Origin: Escherichia phage UPEC06
Length of the DNA: 64,000 nt
Sequence record: MW250786
Reading direction: 5' to 3' (one strand)
Shown here: piece after piece, positions 6,462 to 11,660 of the stretch
Layout of the letters: every line of letters starts with the position of its first letter
How positions within the stretch are numbered: position 1 is the first letter of the stretch
Position numbers and translations under genes: made by a program
The notes under the pieces: model-generated
Told to the model about the DNA's origin: nothing
Databases searched by the model: none
Seen by the model: the letters and a program-made list of their open reading frames with translations, nothing else

Positions 6462-7877
6462 ATGGCTTATGAAGATAAGGTAGTTGACGTCGAGGTAACT
6501 CTTGGCACTCAACCTATTGATACCGTAGGGTTTGAAACCCCAATGTTCTTAGCAGTACACAACAACTTCCCTGAACGTCTCCGTCTGTACGGGTCTTTGG
6601 AAAGTCTGGTTGGTGATGGATTTGCAGTTGGTTCCGCAGCGCATCAGTTTGCATCCAATGCATTTGGCGGTTCTTTTGCTCCGCAACTGGTGGCTATTGG
6701 TCGTATGTCTATGTCGGGTTCTCGAATCGACTTTACTGGCACTACCAATACCGAACGTGTTGTTGTAAATATTACCATCAATAAGGTTGTTAAAGCAATC
6801 ACCATTTTGGTTAACGTTGGAAACACCCCTGGTCAGATCGCAACCGCTCTGGCAGAAGGCATTAACAACGATGCGGATTTGGCTGGTCGCGTTACTGCAA
6901 CTGTTGAAGGTGGTGTCGTCGTTGTTGTACAATCCGCAGAAATTATCAGCGTAGGAAAAGGCGAAGGTAATTACAAGATTGTAAACACCTCTGTTGAAAC
7001 TGTTGCAACTGTTCTTCCGCAGGTACTTGCTGAAAACCACAACTGGTACTTCCTGTCTCACGAACAACGTTCTGATGCAGATATCGTTGCAGCGGCTGAA
7101 TTTGCACAAGCCAATTATAAACTGCACGTATATAATTCCAGTGACAGCGATGCTCTGGCAGCAGCTAACCAAAGCGCTTCCGTGTTTGATACACTGAAAG
7201 CTCTGGGTTACAACTCTCTGGGTACTTACGACAAAGAAGCGGATGTAGAATTCACCGAAGGTTCTGTTATCGGTGCAATGGCTGCCAACGATCCTTCTTA
7301 CGGTGACTCTATTCACCTGAAGACAATGCCTGGCATGAAGCCTTCTACCATCTCCGAAACTCAGCGTAGCAACGCTTGGGGACGTAACGCAAACATCTAT
7401 CGTGCAATGTACGGCACTAACAGCTACATCGAAGGTCGTACCTCCAGCGGTCAGTATGTTGACGTTATTCGTTTCTCCCATTGGCTGAAATTTCGCATGG
7501 AAGAATCTGTATTCGGATACATGAAGCGTCGTTCTGATCAAGGCCAGTCCATGAAGATGAGTGATGAAGATCTTCCGGTTCTGCGTTCTATCCTGTTCAA
7601 TAATCCAATCAACATCGGTATTCGTAACGGTGGTATTCTGACTGGTTATGATACAGTGAACCGTGTGAGCTACGATCCAATCATTACTATTCCTCGTCGT
7701 GCTGAAATTCCAAGCAACGACTTGGCTAACCGTATCCTGCGTGATGTTAAAGTTGAAGTAGTTTACAACAACTCCCTGCACTACGTTAAAATTCGCGCTG
7801 CTGTTGTTCTGGATCGTCCTCAAACTACGACCCAAAGCACTCAGACTTCTTTCACTACTTCTTCTGTAGGGGTGTAA
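6462..7877 (+). CDS. putative tail sheath protein
   Basis: 471 aa; position in the order sheath-tube-chaperones-tape measure; strong AGAGGA RBS. Confidence 0.5.
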   Translation: MAYEDKVVDVEVTLGTQPIDTVGFETPMFLAVHNNFPERLRLYGSLESLVGDGFAVGSAAHQFASNAFGGSFAPQLVAIGRMSMSGSRIDFTGTTNTERVVVNITINKVVKAITILVNVGNTPGQIATALAEGINNDADLAGRVTATVEGGVVVVVQSAEIISVGKGEGNYKIVNTSVETVATVLPQVLAENHNWYFLSHEQRSDADIVAAAEFAQANYKLHVYNSSDSDALAAANQSASVFDTLKALGYNSLGTYDKEADVEFTEGSVIGAMAANDPSYGDSIHLKTMPGMKPSTISETQRSNAWGRNANIYRAMYGTNSYIEGRTSSGQYVDVIRFSHWLKFRMEESVFGYMKRRSDQGQSMKMSDEDLPVLRSILFNNPINIGIRNGGILTGYDTVNRVSYDPIITIPRRAEIPSNDLANRILRDVKVEVVYNNSLHYVKIRAAVVLDRPQTTTQSTQTSFTTSSVGV

Positions 7878-7880
7878 TAG

Positions 7881-8363
7881 ATGGCACTGAATCCTAAGTT
7901 AATTAGTCTCCAGGCGTATGACCCAGCCAAAGTCCTGATCTTTATCGGTGGTCAACGTGTTTCTGGATTCGCCGCTGATACGAAAGTCGTTGTTTCTCGT
8001 AACAATGATAACATTACTCCGCTGTCGGGTGTAGATGGTGAAGTGAGTTCTGCTATCGTCCGTGATAACTCCGGCGTAGTGACCATCTCTTTGCAGAATA
8101 CCTCTGTATGGAACGGTTATCTCTCTCAATGGCAGTTGCAAGCCCGTCTTACCGGACTTGTTTACTTCCCGATTCAGATTGAAGGTTCTCAGGGTCTATC
8201 TCTGAACACCTTCGGATGGATTCAACGTCAACCAGACCTGACCTACGGTTCTGAAGTAGGCCAGATGGACTGGGAAATTGGCGTAGTCGATGCACAGTTG
8301 AGCGCTGATCAGATTCAAGGCGTTGCTGCTGGTATCGGTGGAATCCTCGGACTGGATCAATAA
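7881..8363 (+). CDS. putative tail tube protein
   Basis: 160 aa ORF directly after sheath candidate and before chaperone pair. Confidence 0.45.
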   Translation: MALNPKLISLQAYDPAKVLIFIGGQRVSGFAADTKVVVSRNNDNITPLSGVDGEVSSAIVRDNSGVVTISLQNTSVWNGYLSQWQLQARLTGLVYFPIQIEGSQGLSLNTFGWIQRQPDLTYGSEVGQMDWEIGVVDAQLSADQIQGVAAGIGGILGLDQ

Positions 8364-8442: not shown

Positions 8443-8913
8443 GTGCAAGGTTTTAAATTTAAAAAGACTACAGAGATCACTCTCTGCGGCGGTAAGCGAT
8501 TCACGATTTATCATTGGTCGCCTACTCAAGTTATCCGTAATATGCCTAAAATTGGCAAGCTGGTAGCTGTTCCTTTGGGTACAATGGCAGGCTCTGCTAT
8601 TTCCGGTGGACAAGATTTTCAAGATGCTGTCCCAACCGCAATTCTTTATATTCTGGATCGTATCGATGAAGGTGGTCTGGAAATTATCAACCTTTTACTG
8701 GAAGGCGTTGAAGTAGACAACATGGGCGGCCCGATTGATATCGATGAAGTGTTTGATGGTCACGTAGAAGATTTGTTCAAGTTACTTGCTGAAATCATAC
8801 AGGTGAACTACGGCTGTTTTTTCGGCAAGAGCGGTTTCGGGACAATCGAAAATCTCCTTCAGAAGTTCGGTCTGGTTCGCAAGGTGGACCAACTGGATCA
8901 GACGGAAGCCTGA
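8443..8913 (+). CDS. tail assembly chaperone (G-like)
   Basis: GTG start; immediately upstream of tape measure gene; slippery site near 3' end. Confidence 0.55.
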   Translation: MQGFKFKKTTEITLCGGKRFTIYHWSPTQVIRNMPKIGKLVAVPLGTMAGSAISGGQDFQDAVPTAILYILDRIDEGGLEIINLLLEGVEVDNMGGPIDIDEVFDGHVEDLFKLLAEIIQVNYGCFFGKSGFGTIENLLQKFGLVRKVDQLDQTEA

Positions 8914-9179
8914 GGCCGCTGAGTACGGTGGAAAGGGCCTTGGAGTATTGTAGGAAAAACTCCAGTCTGAAATGGTATGACTATCTTTATTTCCGTGTCA
9001 TGGAGAAATTCAAGGGAGTTAATGAACTTTCTATTGAAAGTGGGGACATGGAAGACCTTCTTAAGAAAAATGAATATATAGATATTCAAGAATATTTGGA
9101 AGGTGTTCAAGAGAAAGAGAAGGAATACGAACGCCAGCGAATGGAACAACAAGAGGCCCAGTTAAAACGGAGAAAGTAA
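8793..9179 (+). CDS. -1 frame extension of tail assembly chaperone (GT-like fusion C-terminal part)
   Basis: ORF in -1 frame overlaps the last ~120 nt of the upstream chaperone gene and ends just before the tape measure gene. Confidence 0.5.
   Translation, partial: NHTGELRLFFRQERFRDNRKSPSEVRSGSQGGPTGSDGSLRPLSTVERALEYCRKNSSLKWYDYLYFRVMEKFKGVNELSIESGDMEDLLKKNEYIDIQEYLEGVQEKEKEYERQRMEQQEAQLKRRK
8817..8823 (+). other. candidate -1 programmed ribosomal frameshift slippery heptamer T_TTT_TTC
   Basis: XXXYYYZ heptamer in the zero frame of the 8443..8913 ORF (codons TTT 8818-8820, TTC 8821-8823); the -1 frame is open from 8793 to 9179. Confidence 0.5.
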
Positions 9180-9187
9180 ATAAATAG

Positions 9188-9222
9188 GGCTGGAGTCGAA
9201 AGACTCTGGCCTTTATTTTTAT
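9188..9222 (+). terminator. hairpin (GAAA loop) + U-tract, attenuator/terminator-like
   Basis: GGCTGGAGTC-GAAA-GACTCTGGCC (two G-U pairs) followed by TTTATTTTTATT. Confidence 0.4.
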
Positions 9223-9236
9223 TATGAGGAGTCGAA

Positions 9237-11660
9237 ATGGCTGTTGAAGTAATTGCAACAACAAAGAACCGAGTCATATTTGAAACTGACAAAGGTTCCT
9301 ATCGAAAAGCTCGTGAGGAGATCCGAAAACTCTCCAACGAATGGAAAAAGGCTTCAACAGAGGCTACCGCTGCCGGAAAGAATTCTCCTGCTGAGGCTTA
9401 TAAACAATCCGCTCGTGAAATGAGACTAGTCAGTAAACGTCTGGAAGAAACTCGGAAGCGTGAGGAGAAGAAGGCCACTGATTATCGTATTGCTCTGGCA
9501 AAGAAAGAAGCCAAGGCAAAAGAGGCAATTCAGAAGGTTTCTGCTGCAAGAATACGACAACAGGTTAAAAGCCTGACGGCTGCATCCCCTGGTTCTGCTG
9601 AGATGAGAAAGTTCTATCAGGAACAGGAGAAAGCTGCCCGTGCTGCTGCAAGATCTGCAAACCGTACAGCGACACCTTTACCGCCTTTCAACATCCAACG
9701 TGTGGAAGCTGCAAATCAATTATTATCTCGCGGTAACAGAGAGCCAGGGTCAGGTATTGTTGGAGATCCTAATAGCCGATTCAACCCTGATTTAATTGCT
9801 GCACAAAACAGAGCGATGCAACGTAGTTCTCGTATCAAAGAGAGAATGGAGAAGCAACAAACTCAAGAACAGGAACGTGAACGTGTCCGCGCTGCTCGTG
9901 CTGCTGCCCGTATTGATGATGTTACAGCACAACAGCGTATTCGTCTATCTTCTCGTTATGGTCGTGGTTATGCAGGTGCTTTGGGTCGTGACTCGGAAGG
10001 TCGTGGGATTGAAGATCTTAATAGACAATTCCGTGCAGGAACGTTATCATCTGGTCAGTATCGTCAAAGCATACAGGCGCTAGAAAGACAATTCCGTGCT
10101 GCACAGTCAAGTGCTGGATCTTTCTCTTCCACACTTAAAGATGTTCGTTCCAGCCTGGTAAGTGCTACTGCCGCATACGGAGTTTTCTCAGCAGGTGCAT
10201 CAATAACTCGTCAAGGTCAATTCTTTGAAGGAATCAACGCAACTTCTCTATTGATCTCTGATTCGGCAGAAGAAGCTGGTCAGCGTGTTAAGTTTGTTCG
10301 TGACGAAGCATACCGTTTAGGTTTGGATCTGAAAACTGCATCGCAGGGATTTACCCAGTTAGCGATCTCTGCTGATGGTGTTATTAGTAAATCTCAAACA
10401 GACGAATTATTTAGTGCATTTTCTGAATATTCCACCGCACTTCAGGTCGATCCCGTAAGATATCAGCGTGGCATTACAGCAATTCAACAGATCCTTGGTA
10501 AAGGTCAAGTAATGGCTGAAGAACTTAAAGGCCAGTTGGCTGAAGCAATTCCAGGTTCCTTGCAGGTATTCTTGAAAGCAACTCAGGAAGCTTTTGGTGA
10601 CACCTCTATCGACATTGCAAAATTGCTCAAGCTGATGGAAGACGGTGAATTGAAAGCCTCCAAGATCATACCTTTGGTTGGTAAATACTATGCAGAGGCT
10701 GCTAATAAAGGTGGTGCACTGGATAAAGCTTTGGAAAGTAACCGTGTTGCTTATCAGCGTTTAACCCAGACTTTTGCAGAGTTCCAAAACAAAATATTCC
10801 AAGGTGGCTTTGGAGAACAACTTACAAGAGTGTTCAATAACTTAGCTACGATCCTGTCAAGTAATGGTAATGTTGCCAGCACCATTGGTAGATTCTTCGG
10901 TAACGTAATTGAAGGGTTTACAGACATGGTTCTTGAAATTCACGATAACTTGGTCCTTCTCGACCGTGTTGTGACTTACTATTTCAAGAAGATTGGTGTT
11001 GAAGGTGAAACTCTTCGACAGGTGTTCGACTGGGGTTCTTATCTCCTCGGGATTGGATTATTCCTTGGTGGATTGACTAAAGTGTTCAACATCCTTGCTA
11101 AGATTGCAGGACTTAAAGGTGCACTTAAGGAAATTCGTGGTACACTCGGTGGTGATTTGGCTACAGGTGGAAAAACGAGCACAGGTGCAAGCACAACTGC
11201 TTCTGGCGGGGCAGGTACACCAGGTCAAACCAGCGTAGCGGGTAGATTCAGTCAGCTTGGTAAGCTTGGCAAACTCTTCGGCCTTGGTACTCTTTACTCA
11301 GCAGGGTCAGAGATCAATGACCGCTTTATTCAAAGTGGAGAGAGCCGATTGGCTGGAGCAGGGCTTGACGCAACAGCTTTCCAGCAGCAATATGGTGTAA
11401 CTCCACAACCTGTCGGGTTAACGGATGTGTTCATGGAGTTGTTTGGTGGCTCTCGTGACATAACTGTAGATCCTAACACTATCTCGACTCCATCTGGTAT
11501 TCGCCCTAGCGGATTTCCTCTGGAAACTCCAGCAGCACCACCTGAAGGTAAGATCACCGTTGAGATCAAGAGTGGAGAGATTCGTCAATATATCCGTGCA
11601 ATTGTGGATGAAGAGAACGGATTCAATATCAACCTGCTCACTCAGGGTGGTAACCAATAA
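9237..11660 (+). CDS. tail tape measure protein
   Basis: 807 aa, Ala/Gln/Arg-rich coiled-coil-like N-half, Gly-rich C-terminal region; follows chaperone pair. Confidence 0.7.
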   Translation: MAVEVIATTKNRVIFETDKGSYRKAREEIRKLSNEWKKASTEATAAGKNSPAEAYKQSAREMRLVSKRLEETRKREEKKATDYRIALAKKEAKAKEAIQKVSAARIRQQVKSLTAASPGSAEMRKFYQEQEKAARAAARSANRTATPLPPFNIQRVEAANQLLSRGNREPGSGIVGDPNSRFNPDLIAAQNRAMQRSSRIKERMEKQQTQEQERERVRAARAAARIDDVTAQQRIRLSSRYGRGYAGALGRDSEGRGIEDLNRQFRAGTLSSGQYRQSIQALERQFRAAQSSAGSFSSTLKDVRSSLVSATAAYGVFSAGASITRQGQFFEGINATSLLISDSAEEAGQRVKFVRDEAYRLGLDLKTASQGFTQLAISADGVISKSQTDELFSAFSEYSTALQVDPVRYQRGITAIQQILGKGQVMAEELKGQLAEAIPGSLQVFLKATQEAFGDTSIDIAKLLKLMEDGELKASKIIPLVGKYYAEAANKGGALDKALESNRVAYQRLTQTFAEFQNKIFQGGFGEQLTRVFNNLATILSSNGNVASTIGRFFGNVIEGFTDMVLEIHDNLVLLDRVVTYYFKKIGVEGETLRQVFDWGSYLLGIGLFLGGLTKVFNILAKIAGLKGALKEIRGTLGGDLATGGKTSTGASTTASGGAGTPGQTSVAGRFSQLGKLGKLFGLGTLYSAGSEINDRFIQSGESRLAGAGLDATAFQQQYGVTPQPVGLTDVFMELFGGSRDITVDPNTISTPSGIRPSGFPLETPAAPPEGKITVEIKSGEIRQYIRAIVDEENGFNINLLTQGGNQ

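What the first reader, a model, noticed from the sequence alone, without database searches (positions are those of the whole stretch)
8793..9179. -1 programmed frameshift site in the tail assembly chaperone pair
The slippery heptamer T_TTT_TTC (8817-8823) lies in the zero frame of the 8443..8913 gene, and the -1 frame stays open from 8793 to 9179, just before the tape measure gene. This is the conserved G/GT chaperone arrangement of tailed phages. It is expected biology, but it supports the tail-module assignment and is missed by plain ORF calling.
Basis: partly seen in the sequence, partly recalled or inferred. Interest (0 to 1): 0.4.

Follow-up and report, generated by a model that had tools for sequence, protein, structure and literature searches.

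The report
Tail chaperone -1 frameshift site confirmed
This phage makes two versions of its tail-assembly helper protein by letting some ribosomes slip back one base at TTTTTTC; this is expected biology, conserved in all 40 relatives examined and annotated in none of the 23 public records checked.

Summary
T_TTT_TTC (8817-8823) lies in the zero frame of gene 8443..8913, and the -1 frame is open from 8793 to 9179. The gene is a Pfam Phage_TAC_15 tail assembly chaperone. It sits between the sheath and tube genes and the tape measure gene of a Vequintavirinae myophage that is 99.7% identical to Escherichia phage vB_EcoM-LTH01.

All 40 relatives examined have a canonical heptamer in frame inside the -1 overlap. 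It is T_TTT_TTC in 38, A_AAT_TTT in a Vibrio phage and G_GGA_AAG in a Rheinheimera phage. The slip codons never vary at synonymous sites. An RFR motif in the -1 frame is conserved directly after the site. In several genera the conserved part of the downstream domain lies upstream of any possible start codon. A -1 ribosomal frameshift giving G (156 aa) and GT (245 aa) is therefore the best explanation.

Two possible stimulators were found. One is a 12-bp long-range helix (8830-8841 with 8909-8920) that starts 6 nt after the heptamer, spans the G stop codon and shows some compensatory changes. The other is an SD-like AGGTG 11 nt upstream. Both are suggestive only.

This is ordinary biology: a new member of a known kind, unannotated in the 23 GenBank records checked.

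The parts
6462..7877 (+). Tail sheath gene (context)
   Evidence: phrog_205 tail sheath, E 6.5e-104
7881..8363 (+). Tail tube / virion structural protein gene (context)
   Evidence: Pfam PF11681 KPP10_Orf10 E 2e-9; phrog_280 E 1e-38. The homologue is annotated as tail tube protein in phage HeinrichReichert.
8431..8435 (+). Shine-Dalgarno AGGAG for the chaperone gene, 7 nt before its GTG start
   Evidence: Read directly from the sequence
8443..8913 (+). Gene G: tail assembly chaperone, zero-frame product of 156 aa, 17.2 kDa
   Evidence: Pfam PF21822 Phage_TAC_15 E 7.9e-22; phrog_3840 E 2.9e-63; size
8801..8805 (+). SD-like AGGTG 11 nt upstream of the heptamer; possible upstream stimulator (inferred)
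   Evidence: Duplex with the anti-SD is -6.8 kcal/mol, and only 3% of positions in the same gene are as strong. A similar element sits at the same place in 15 of 25 unique relatives but is absent in Certrevirus. SD-like elements 6-17 nt upstream are known stimulators in E. coli (PMC4066793).
8817..8823 (+). Slippery heptamer T_TTT_TTC, the proposed -1 shift site
   Evidence: In the zero frame. Identical in 38 of 40 relatives, with A_AAT_TTT and G_GGA_AAG in the other two. Synonymous codon identity at the slip codons is 194/194 pairs, against 0.42 upstream.
8824..8829 (+). 6-nt spacer between the heptamer and the predicted helix
8830..8841 (+). 5' arm of the predicted long-range helix (AGCGGUUUCGGG). 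It includes the conserved dual-coded CGGTTTCG (zero frame Gly-Phe, -1 frame Arg-Phe-Arg).
   Evidence: In the MFE structure in all five contexts tested, pair probability 0.5-1.0, duplex -21.9 kcal/mol
8909..8920 (+). 3' arm of the predicted long-range helix (CCUGAGGCCGCU), spanning the G stop codon UGA at 8911-8913
   Evidence: The lower 5 bp are 82% paired across 19 distinct relatives against 21-46% in slid controls, with two pairs showing compensatory changes. The G-stop region is the best partner within 400 nt in 13 of 28 unique sequences.
8823..9179 (+). -1 frame coding segment (T part, 118 aa) read after the slip. The GT fusion is 8443..8823 joined to 8823..9179: 245 aa, 28.1 kDa.
   Evidence: Translation; phrog_10409 E 1.1e-21 and phrog_8811 on the C-terminal part; -1 frame peptide conserved from the first codons, with RFR at least 90% conserved
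8910..9176 (+). Conserved helical T domain (LRPLSTVERALEY...KNSSLKWYDYL...)
   Evidence: Alignments; AlphaFold2 pLDDT 76-88 for residues 160-245, after a disordered linker at 131-158; tblastn finds it in 357 phage records
9186..9223 (+). Intrinsic-terminator-like hairpin plus T-run between the GT stop and the tape measure gene
   Evidence: 12-bp stem, GAAA loop, T-rich tail. A hairpin plus T-run sits at the same place in relatives and is annotated as a terminator in rV5 and phiTE.
9237..11660 (+). Tape measure protein gene (context)
   Evidence: phrog_5255 E 1.8e-291; Pfam PF20155 TMP_3

Best explanation
Gene 8443..8913 encodes the tail assembly chaperone of a Vequintavirinae myophage. Most ribosomes read it in the zero frame to the UGA at 8911 and release G (156 aa, 17.2 kDa). 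A minority slip back one nucleotide while tRNA-Phe molecules occupy UUU (P site) and UUC (A site) of U_UUU_UUC at 8817-8823, re-pairing with UUU and UUU. These ribosomes continue in the -1 frame to 9179 and make GT (245 aa, 28.1 kDa). GT consists of the chaperone domain, a disordered Gly/Ser/Pro-rich linker and a roughly 85-aa helical T domain. By analogy with lambda G/GT, many copies of G and a few of GT coat the tape measure protein, the T domain recruits the tube protein, and neither protein stays in the virion. Shown here: the site, its frame, the open -1 frame, conservation of the site and of the -1 peptide, and the lack of start codons in relatives. Inferred: that the shift is ribosomal, that its efficiency is low, and what the two proteins do. 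A sub-claim held at about 0.4-0.5: the slip is stimulated by a 12-bp long-range helix (8830-8841 with 8909-8920) that begins 6 nt after the heptamer and closes the whole G/T overlap, possibly helped by an SD-like AGGTG 11 nt upstream.
For: Anatomy.

Comparative evidence: an in-frame heptamer lies within the -1 overlap in all 40 relatives. T_TTT_TTC occurs in 38 of them, across Vequintavirinae, Stephanstirmvirinae and Plateaulakevirus. A Vibrio phage has A_AAT_TTT, and a Rheinheimera Barbavirus has lambda's G_GGA_AAG three codons downstream of the homologous position. The codon before the slip encodes Cys, Ser or Pro but always ends in T (TGT, AGT, CCT).

Coding evidence: synonymous codon identity is 1.00 at the slip codons and 0.63 in the overlap, against 0.42 upstream. 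The -1 frame RFR motif just after the site is at least 90% conserved, and its Arg is encoded by CGG or AGG. In CR8, F4M1E, KB57 and pEp_SNUABM_01 the first ATG, GTG or TTG in the -1 frame lies 60-83 codons after the site, downstream of the conserved motif LSTVEKALEYARKNSSLKWYDYL.

Heptamer competence: U_UU.U_UU.C is an experimentally shift-prone heptamer in E. coli, belongs to the most efficient class H_HH.U_UU.Y, and is under-represented in E. coli genes (PMC4066793). It is also depleted in this window.

Precedent: a conserved -1 frameshift with an invariant GTTTTT was proposed for the homologous locus in Vandenendeviridae and Andersonviridae (PMC12846349).

Helix.
Against: No protein, ribosome-profiling or reporter data exist for this phage or, in the papers searched, for any Vequintavirinae phage.

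In the window itself GTG 8928 and TTG 8940 have moderate SD-like sequences upstream (-5.6 and -6.2 kcal/mol), so some independent initiation cannot be excluded from sequence alone.

The helix is not in register, or is absent, in the rV5 group, ABPH49, Stephanstirmvirinae, the Vibrio phage and Barbavirus. Its covariation rests on only three or four haplotypes, and both arms are coding. Fold z-scores are modest: -2.5 for the window and -0.2 to -2 in relatives. No local hairpin within 45-52 nt downstream beats shuffled sequence in the window.
Confidence: 0.9

Rival explanations
1. Two separate proteins. The downstream ORF is translated on its own from GTG 8928 or TTG 8940, and the heptamer and overlap are incidental.
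For: Both candidate starts have moderate SD-like sequences upstream (-5.6 and -6.2 kcal/mol). GenBank annotators call a separate hypothetical protein here.
Against: These starts are not conserved. In CR8, F4M1E, KB57 and pEp_SNUABM_01 no start codon exists until 60-83 codons after the slip site, downstream of the conserved half of the T domain. The -1 frame peptide is conserved from the heptamer onward, including RFR. Annotated starts differ in nearly every record, giving 38-122 aa. The predicted helix would sequester the GAGG that precedes GTG 8928.
Confidence: 0.04
2. Transcriptional slippage. RNA polymerase inserts an extra U in the T6 run, and standard translation of the edited mRNA gives GT.
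For: The site is a run of six T. Homopolymer runs can cause polymerase slippage, a general point made for A7 and U7 in PMC4066793. The protein product would be nearly the same.
Against: Related phages keep a slippery heptamer rather than a homopolymer run: A_AAT_TTT in the Vibrio phage and G_GGA_AAG in the Barbavirus. The exact zero-frame phasing X_XXY_YYZ and the final C are invariant in 38 genomes. By my own knowledge, six T is shorter than the runs of about 9 that give productive slippage by bacterial RNA polymerase. A structure that starts 5-6 nt downstream fits a ribosomal stimulator.
Confidence: 0.05
3. A chance overlap with no recoding. The -1 ORF is a non-functional remnant.
For: None beyond the lack of direct protein evidence.
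Against: The chance of 128 stop-free codons is about 3e-6 given the local stop density. The ORF, the heptamer and the T-domain sequence are conserved in 40 relatives from several subfamilies. AlphaFold2 models the T domain as a confident helical domain.
Confidence: 0.01

Closest known systems
Phage lambda G/GT tail assembly chaperones (-1 frameshift at G_GGA_AAG; Levin et al. 1993; Xu, Hendrix and Duda 2004, 2013, 2014, as summarised in PMC5009743)
   Same: The chaperone gene lies directly upstream of the tape measure gene. The -1 ORF has no reliable start. A canonical heptamer sits near the 3' end of G. The long form carries an extra C-terminal domain. One relative of this family (Rheinheimera Barba18A) uses lambda's exact heptamer.
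   Different: The tail is contractile, so sheath and tube genes lie upstream. The heptamer is T_TTT_TTC. G belongs to a different Pfam family (TAC_15). No sequence similarity to lambda G or T was detected. A candidate long-range helix and an upstream SD-like element are present here, whereas none is known to be required in lambda (my knowledge).
Phage P2 E/E+E' (myophage, -1 frameshift at T_TTT_TTG; Christie et al. 2002; from my own knowledge, not checked here)
   Same: A contractile-tail phage. The chaperone pair lies between the tube and tape measure genes. The heptamer is T-rich and differs only in its last base.
   Different: The protein family and genome type differ (33-kb temperate phage against about 140-kb virulent phage). 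The last base is C rather than G, which in E. coli places the site in the efficient H_HH.U_UU.Y class.
TAC-N/TAC-NC locus of Vandenendeviridae (Pakpunavirus Adele) and Andersonviridae (Felix O1/Moogle group), with an invariant GTTTTT (PMC12846349; PMC4319497)
   Same: The gene order is syntenic and the virion modules are related. The -1 ORF is routinely mis-annotated as a hypothetical protein. A poly-T slip motif lies at the 3' end of TAC-N, and the window has G TTT TTT C at 8816-8823.
   Different: That study aligned Vandenendeviridae and Andersonviridae only. Vequintavirinae and Stephanstirmvirinae were used there for phylogeny but not for the frameshift analysis. No stimulatory structure was described in the passages read there.
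dnaX and IS3/IS911-type bacterial -1 frameshift signals (heptamer plus upstream SD-like element plus downstream structure; PMC4066793)
   Same: The possible three-part signal is the same: an SD-like AGGTG 11 nt upstream, the heptamer, a 6-nt spacer and a downstream helix. U_UU.U_UU.C is used by some IS elements.
   Different: The downstream element here would be a long-range stem closing about 67 nt, with its 3' arm over the zero-frame stop codon, rather than a compact hairpin or pseudoknot. It has not been tested.

Membership tests
Tailed-phage G/GT tail assembly chaperone pair with programmed -1 frameshift (Xu, Hendrix and Duda 2004) | Located between the major tail or tube gene and the tape measure gene | tested here: met
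   Sheath 6462-7877, tube 7881-8363, G 8443-8913, -1 ORF to 9179, tape measure 9237-11660
Tailed-phage G/GT tail assembly chaperone pair with programmed -1 frameshift (Xu, Hendrix and Duda 2004) | Second ORF overlaps the 3' end of the first in the -1 frame and lacks its own conserved start | tested here: met
   The -1 frame is open 8793-9179 and overlaps G by 121 nt. The first possible start lies 60-83 codons after the slip site in four genera.
Tailed-phage G/GT tail assembly chaperone pair with programmed -1 frameshift (Xu, Hendrix and Duda 2004) | Canonical slippery heptamer X_XXY_YYZ in the zero frame inside the overlap, conserved in relatives | tested here: met
   T_TTT_TTC at 8817-8823. 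Present in 38 of 40 relatives, with other canonical heptamers in the remaining 2.
Tailed-phage G/GT tail assembly chaperone pair with programmed -1 frameshift (Xu, Hendrix and Duda 2004) | A G-T fusion protein is made at a low, fixed ratio and is needed for tail assembly | not testable with these tools
   Needs a Western blot, mass spectrometry or genetics. No proteomic report was found.
Pfam PF21822 Phage_TAC_15 (tail assembly chaperone) | Score above the curated gathering threshold | tested here: met
   78.6 bits against a cut-off of 22, E 7.9e-22, covering residues 16-133 of 156
Tail assembly chaperone fold | Structural similarity of the N-terminal domain to solved chaperones | tested here: inconclusive
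   [not shown]
Full bacterial -1 frameshift signal (heptamer, 5-9 nt spacer, 3' RNA structure) | Conserved downstream structure at the right spacing, supported by covariation | tested here: inconclusive
   A helix starts 6 nt after the heptamer in the window, at -21.9 kcal/mol with pair probability 0.5-1.0. Across relatives 82% of cells are paired against 21-46% in slid controls, and two pairs show compensatory changes. It is absent or out of register in 5 of the 19 sequences counted (3-4 unpaired at each pair) and in the more distant groups. There is no Rfam match.
Transcriptional-slippage recoding sites | A long homopolymer run that is itself the conserved feature | tested here: not met
   The run is only six T. 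Relatives replace it with A3T4 or G3A3G heptamers that keep X_XXY_YYZ phasing but have no long run.

The most novel reading that the evidence does not exclude
The frameshift may be tuned by a conserved long-range RNA helix. Its 5' arm begins 6 nt after the slippery heptamer, and its 3' arm lies over the chaperone's own stop codon. Ribosomes that terminate at the G stop would transiently melt the stimulator for the ribosomes behind them. The G:GT ratio would then depend on ribosome traffic, not on a fixed value set by the heptamer alone. The helix recurs, with compensatory changes, in the window's lineage, Certrevirus, Seunavirus, Mydovirus, Avunavirus and several unclassified Vequintavirinae. 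Other lineages have local hairpins at the same spacing.
Probability: 0.3. Interest if true: 0.45.

Novelty: new member of a known kind. Interest (0 to 1): 0.3.

Why it matters
The result corrects a systematic annotation error. In the 23 public records checked from this group of roughly 115-155-kb myophages (80 kb for the Barbavirus record), many of which are phage-therapy candidates, the long chaperone form GT is missing and its C-terminal domain is filed as a hypothetical protein of arbitrary length or not called at all. It extends the conserved poly-T frameshift recently proposed for Vandenendeviridae and Andersonviridae to Vequintavirinae, Stephanstirmvirinae, Plateaulakevirus and Barbavirus. 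That supports an ancient shared tail-assembly module. The swaps between three different canonical heptamers at one locus form a clean natural experiment showing that slipperiness, not a specific sequence, is what selection keeps. The candidate long-range helix over the stop codon is a testable lead for recoding specialists. The basic biology is what a phage biologist would expect.

Tried and rejected
- A local stem-loop or pseudoknot just downstream of the heptamer in the window: folds of 45-52 nt are no better than shuffled sequence (z +0.9 to +1.1). Rejected in favour of the long-range helix.
- Rfam scan of 8700-9300 at E up to 1: no family.
- Sequence search of the PDB with the GT profile: nothing relevant.
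- Foldseek of the GT model against the PDB: nothing significant.
- The search for related loci with the 14-sequence alignment failed because no conserved block was found. It was repeated with 10 sequences.
- A second complementary site for the 5' arm near the T stop codon proved inconsistent in position and sequence between lineages. Dropped.
- +1 frameshifting: the +1 frame closes after 48 codons and is not conserved.
- Other in-frame heptamers in the overlap: none in the window. C_CCT_TTT overlaps the T_TTT_TTC site by three bases in Stephanstirmvirinae only.
- Literature: the rV5 genome and proteome paper has no mention of a frameshift or chaperone. No paper holds both TTTTTTC and 'tail assembly chaperone'. 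Vladimirov et al. 2022 on T4-like chaperones could not be read.
- The in-frame U_UUC tetramer at 8835-8838 as the true shift site: rejected, because the conserved -1 frame Arg codon (CGG or AGG) lies upstream of it.

Full report
**Observation**

The sequence and a script confirm every coordinate in the finding. TTTTTTC occupies 8817-8823. The zero frame of ORF 8443..8913 reads TGT|TTT|TTC, so the motif is phased as T_TTT_TTC. The -1 frame has a TGA at 8790-8792 and is then open for 128 codons to the TAA at 9177-9179, which is 57 nt before the ATG at 9237.

This is not chance:
- The same -1 frame carries 11 stops in the preceding 117 codons.
- TTTTTTC is three-fold depleted in the window, with 10 copies against 30 +/- 6 expected.
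- Of 60 in-frame X_XXY_YYZ heptamers in long ORFs on both strands, this is the only genuine one whose -1 frame runs far beyond the zero-frame stop.
- The +1 frame is closed after 48 codons.

**What the genes are**

The region is a contractile-tail module:

| Coordinates | Gene | Best match |
|---|---|---|
| 6462-7877 | tail sheath | phrog_205, E 6.5e-104 |
| 7881-8363 | tail tube | PF11681; phrog_280 |
| 8443-8913 | chaperone G | Pfam PF21822 Phage_TAC_15, E 7.9e-22; phrog_3840 'tail assembly chaperone', E 2.9e-63 |
| -1 ORF, C-terminal part | T domain | phrog_10409 and phrog_8811, both 'unknown function' |
| 9237-11660 | tape measure | phrog_5255, E 1.8e-291 |

The window is 99.7% identical over this stretch to Escherichia phage vB_EcoM-LTH01, an unclassified Vequintavirinae. 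It is about 70% identical at the DNA level to Certrevirus phages CR3, CR8, CR9 and phiTE.

**Comparative test**

I collected 40 related loci. They came from GenBank phages and IMG/VR contigs. They cover six Vequintavirinae genera plus unclassified members, Stephanstirmvirinae, Plateaulakevirus, a Vibrio phage and a Rheinheimera Barbavirus. Protein identity of G to the window falls to 23-28%.

- Every locus has a -1 ORF of 108-149 codons that overlaps the end of G and stops just before the tape measure gene or an inserted gene. Every locus also has a canonical heptamer in the zero frame inside the overlap.
- The heptamer is T_TTT_TTC in 38 loci. It is A_AAT_TTT in Vibrio phage 193E37-1. In Rheinheimera phage Barba18A it is G_GGA_AAG, lambda's own heptamer, three codons downstream of the homologous position.
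- The codon before the slip encodes Cys, Ser or Pro in different lineages but always ends in T: TGT, AGT or CCT.
- Among pairs of sequences that share an amino acid, codon identity is 0.42 upstream of the overlap, 1.00 (194 of 194 pairs) at the slip codons and 0.63 within the overlap. This is the expected signature of a nucleotide-level signal followed by dual coding.

**The -1 frame is translated from the heptamer, not from an internal start**

- The -1 peptide is conserved from its first residues. An Arg-Phe-Arg motif four to six residues after the shift is at least 90% conserved. Its first Arg is CGG in Vequintavirinae and AGG in Stephanstirmvirinae. That points to selection on the protein rather than only on the RNA.
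- The conserved helical T domain begins about 30-45 residues after the shift. In CR8, F4M1E, KB57 and pEp_SNUABM_01 the first ATG, GTG or TTG in that frame lies 60-83 codons after the shift, downstream of the motif LSTVEKALEYARKNSSLKWYDYL.
- Annotators have given the downstream ORF a different start in almost every record, from 38 to 122 aa, or no gene at all. None of the 23 records inspected has a joined CDS (see also 'none' under the match).
- An AlphaFold2 model of the 245-aa fusion, built from a 22-sequence alignment, shows three parts. The N-terminal domain (residues 1-127) is mostly folded, with one low-confidence stretch at 42-57. A linker at 131-158 is disordered (pLDDT below 50). The C-terminal domain (160-245) is helical with pLDDT 76-88.

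**Mechanism**

The best-supported mechanism is tandem -1 slippage of the two tRNA-Phe molecules on U_UUU_UUC.

- Sharma et al. 2014 (PMC4066793) measured this in E. coli. U_UU.C is the second most shift-prone A-site tetramer. H_HH.U_UU.Y heptamers are among the most efficient classes. U_UU.U_UU.C is used by some IS elements, gives more than 0.1% shifting without any stimulator, and is under-represented in E. coli genes.
- The function of the two products is inferred from lambda (PMC5009743). There G and GT bind the tape measure protein at roughly 30:1, the T domain recruits the tube subunit, and neither protein is in the virion.
- Transcriptional slippage on the T6 run is the main mechanistic rival. 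I rate it low because relatives replace the run with heptamers that have no long homopolymer yet keep X_XXY_YYZ phasing.

**Stimulators**

No compact hairpin exists in the window. A long-range helix does.

- A 12-bp helix joins 8830-8841 (AGCGGUUUCGGG) to 8909-8920 (CCUGAGGCCGCU). It starts exactly 6 nt after the heptamer, and its 3' arm spans the G stop codon.
- It is in the minimum-free-energy fold in all five sequence contexts tried, with pair probability 0.5-1.0 and duplex energy -21.9 kcal/mol.
- The same arrangement is predicted independently in Certrevirus, Seunavirus, Mydovirus, Avunavirus, pEp_SNUABM_01, SSBI34 and ChuuTotoro.
- On an ungapped alignment of 19 distinct sequences, the lower five pairs are 82% paired against 21-46% when the partner is slid. 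Two pairs change on both sides, A-U/G-C/G-U and G-C/A-U. The covariation score is 0.281 against 0.158 in shuffles, with 0 of 500 shuffles as high.
- The G-stop region is the single best partner for the 5' segment within 400 nt in 13 of 28 unique sequences.

There are important caveats. Only three or four haplotypes underlie the covariation. Both arms are coding: the 5' arm is dual-coded and the 3' arm contains a conserved Pro codon. The rV5 group, ABPH49, Stephanstirmvirinae, the Vibrio phage and Barbavirus lack the helix, although ABPH49 and 2L372X have local hairpins 5-6 nt after the heptamer (z -2.0 and -3.6). Shuffle controls overstate significance for related sequences. I therefore hold the helix at about 0.4-0.5.

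An SD-like AGGTG at 8801-8805, 11 nt upstream, is stronger than 97% of positions in the gene. It has GGAGG-type counterparts in 15 of 25 unique relatives but is missing in Certrevirus. It partly reflects the conserved Leu-Glu-Val codons.

**Comparison with what is known, and novelty**

This is the G/GT arrangement of Xu, Hendrix and Duda (2004). Every defining feature that can be tested from sequence is met. The closest published statement is the December 2025 paper on Pseudomonas phage Adele (PMC12846349). It proposed a conserved -1 frameshift with an invariant GTTTTT at the homologous locus of Vandenendeviridae and Andersonviridae, and noted that phage Moogle was already annotated with a frameshift (PMC4319497). 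It did not analyse Vequintavirinae.

I found no paper or GenBank record that describes the site in Vequintavirinae or Stephanstirmvirinae. The finding is therefore a new member of a known kind: solid, useful for annotation, and unsurprising. The candidate helix over the stop codon is the only element that might interest a recoding specialist.

**Verdict**

Confidence that a programmed -1 frameshift at 8817-8823 produces a GT fusion is 0.9. Interest is 0.3.

Noticed in passing
window 9186-9223: An intrinsic-terminator-like hairpin (12-bp stem, GAAA loop, T-run) sits between the GT stop and the tape measure start. A hairpin plus T-run with a different stem sequence is at the same place in CR8, CR9, SSBI34, ChuuTotoro, SSE121 and rV5, and it is annotated as a terminator in rV5 and phiTE. 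It may lower tape measure transcription relative to the chaperone.
   Followed up: partly
L004 2422-3522 (phiTE); L041 1743-2381 (Barba18A); L005 2241-2466 (CR9): The gap between the T ORF and the tape measure gene is an insertion hotspot. phiTE carries two extra ORFs there, Rheinheimera Barba18A has an HNH endonuclease on the opposite strand, and CR9 has a 227-nt gap.
   Followed up: no
window, whole 64 kb: TTTTTTC is three-fold depleted on both strands (10 found, 30 +/- 6 expected from shuffles). This is consistent with avoidance of a shift-prone motif outside the one programmed site.
   Followed up: partly
window 8801-8805: An SD-like AGGTG lies 11 nt upstream of the heptamer. GGAGG or GAGGTG is at the same place in 15 of 25 unique relatives but absent in Certrevirus, KB57 and 2L372X. 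It could be a dnaX-like upstream stimulator or a by-product of the Leu-Glu-Val codons.
   Followed up: partly
window 8835-8838: An in-frame U_UUC tetramer, the second most shift-prone tetramer in E. coli, lies inside the invariant CGGTTTCG. It could be a minor secondary slip site, and it sits within the 5' arm of the predicted helix.
   Followed up: partly
window 8443: The chaperone gene starts with GTG in the window, LTH01 and A7_1, but with ATG in every other relative examined.
   Followed up: no
window 6549-7835 (- strand): A 428-aa ORF with a TTG start runs antisense through almost the whole sheath gene. It is probably a shadow ORF caused by codon bias.
   Followed up: no
[not shown]
   Followed up: no
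L013 1854-1863, L015 1866-1875, L040 1821-1830: Stephanstirmvirinae carry two overlapping in-frame heptamers, C_CCT_TTT and T_TTT_TTC, giving CCCTTTTTTC. This extended slippery tract might allow slips at two adjacent positions.
   Followed up: no
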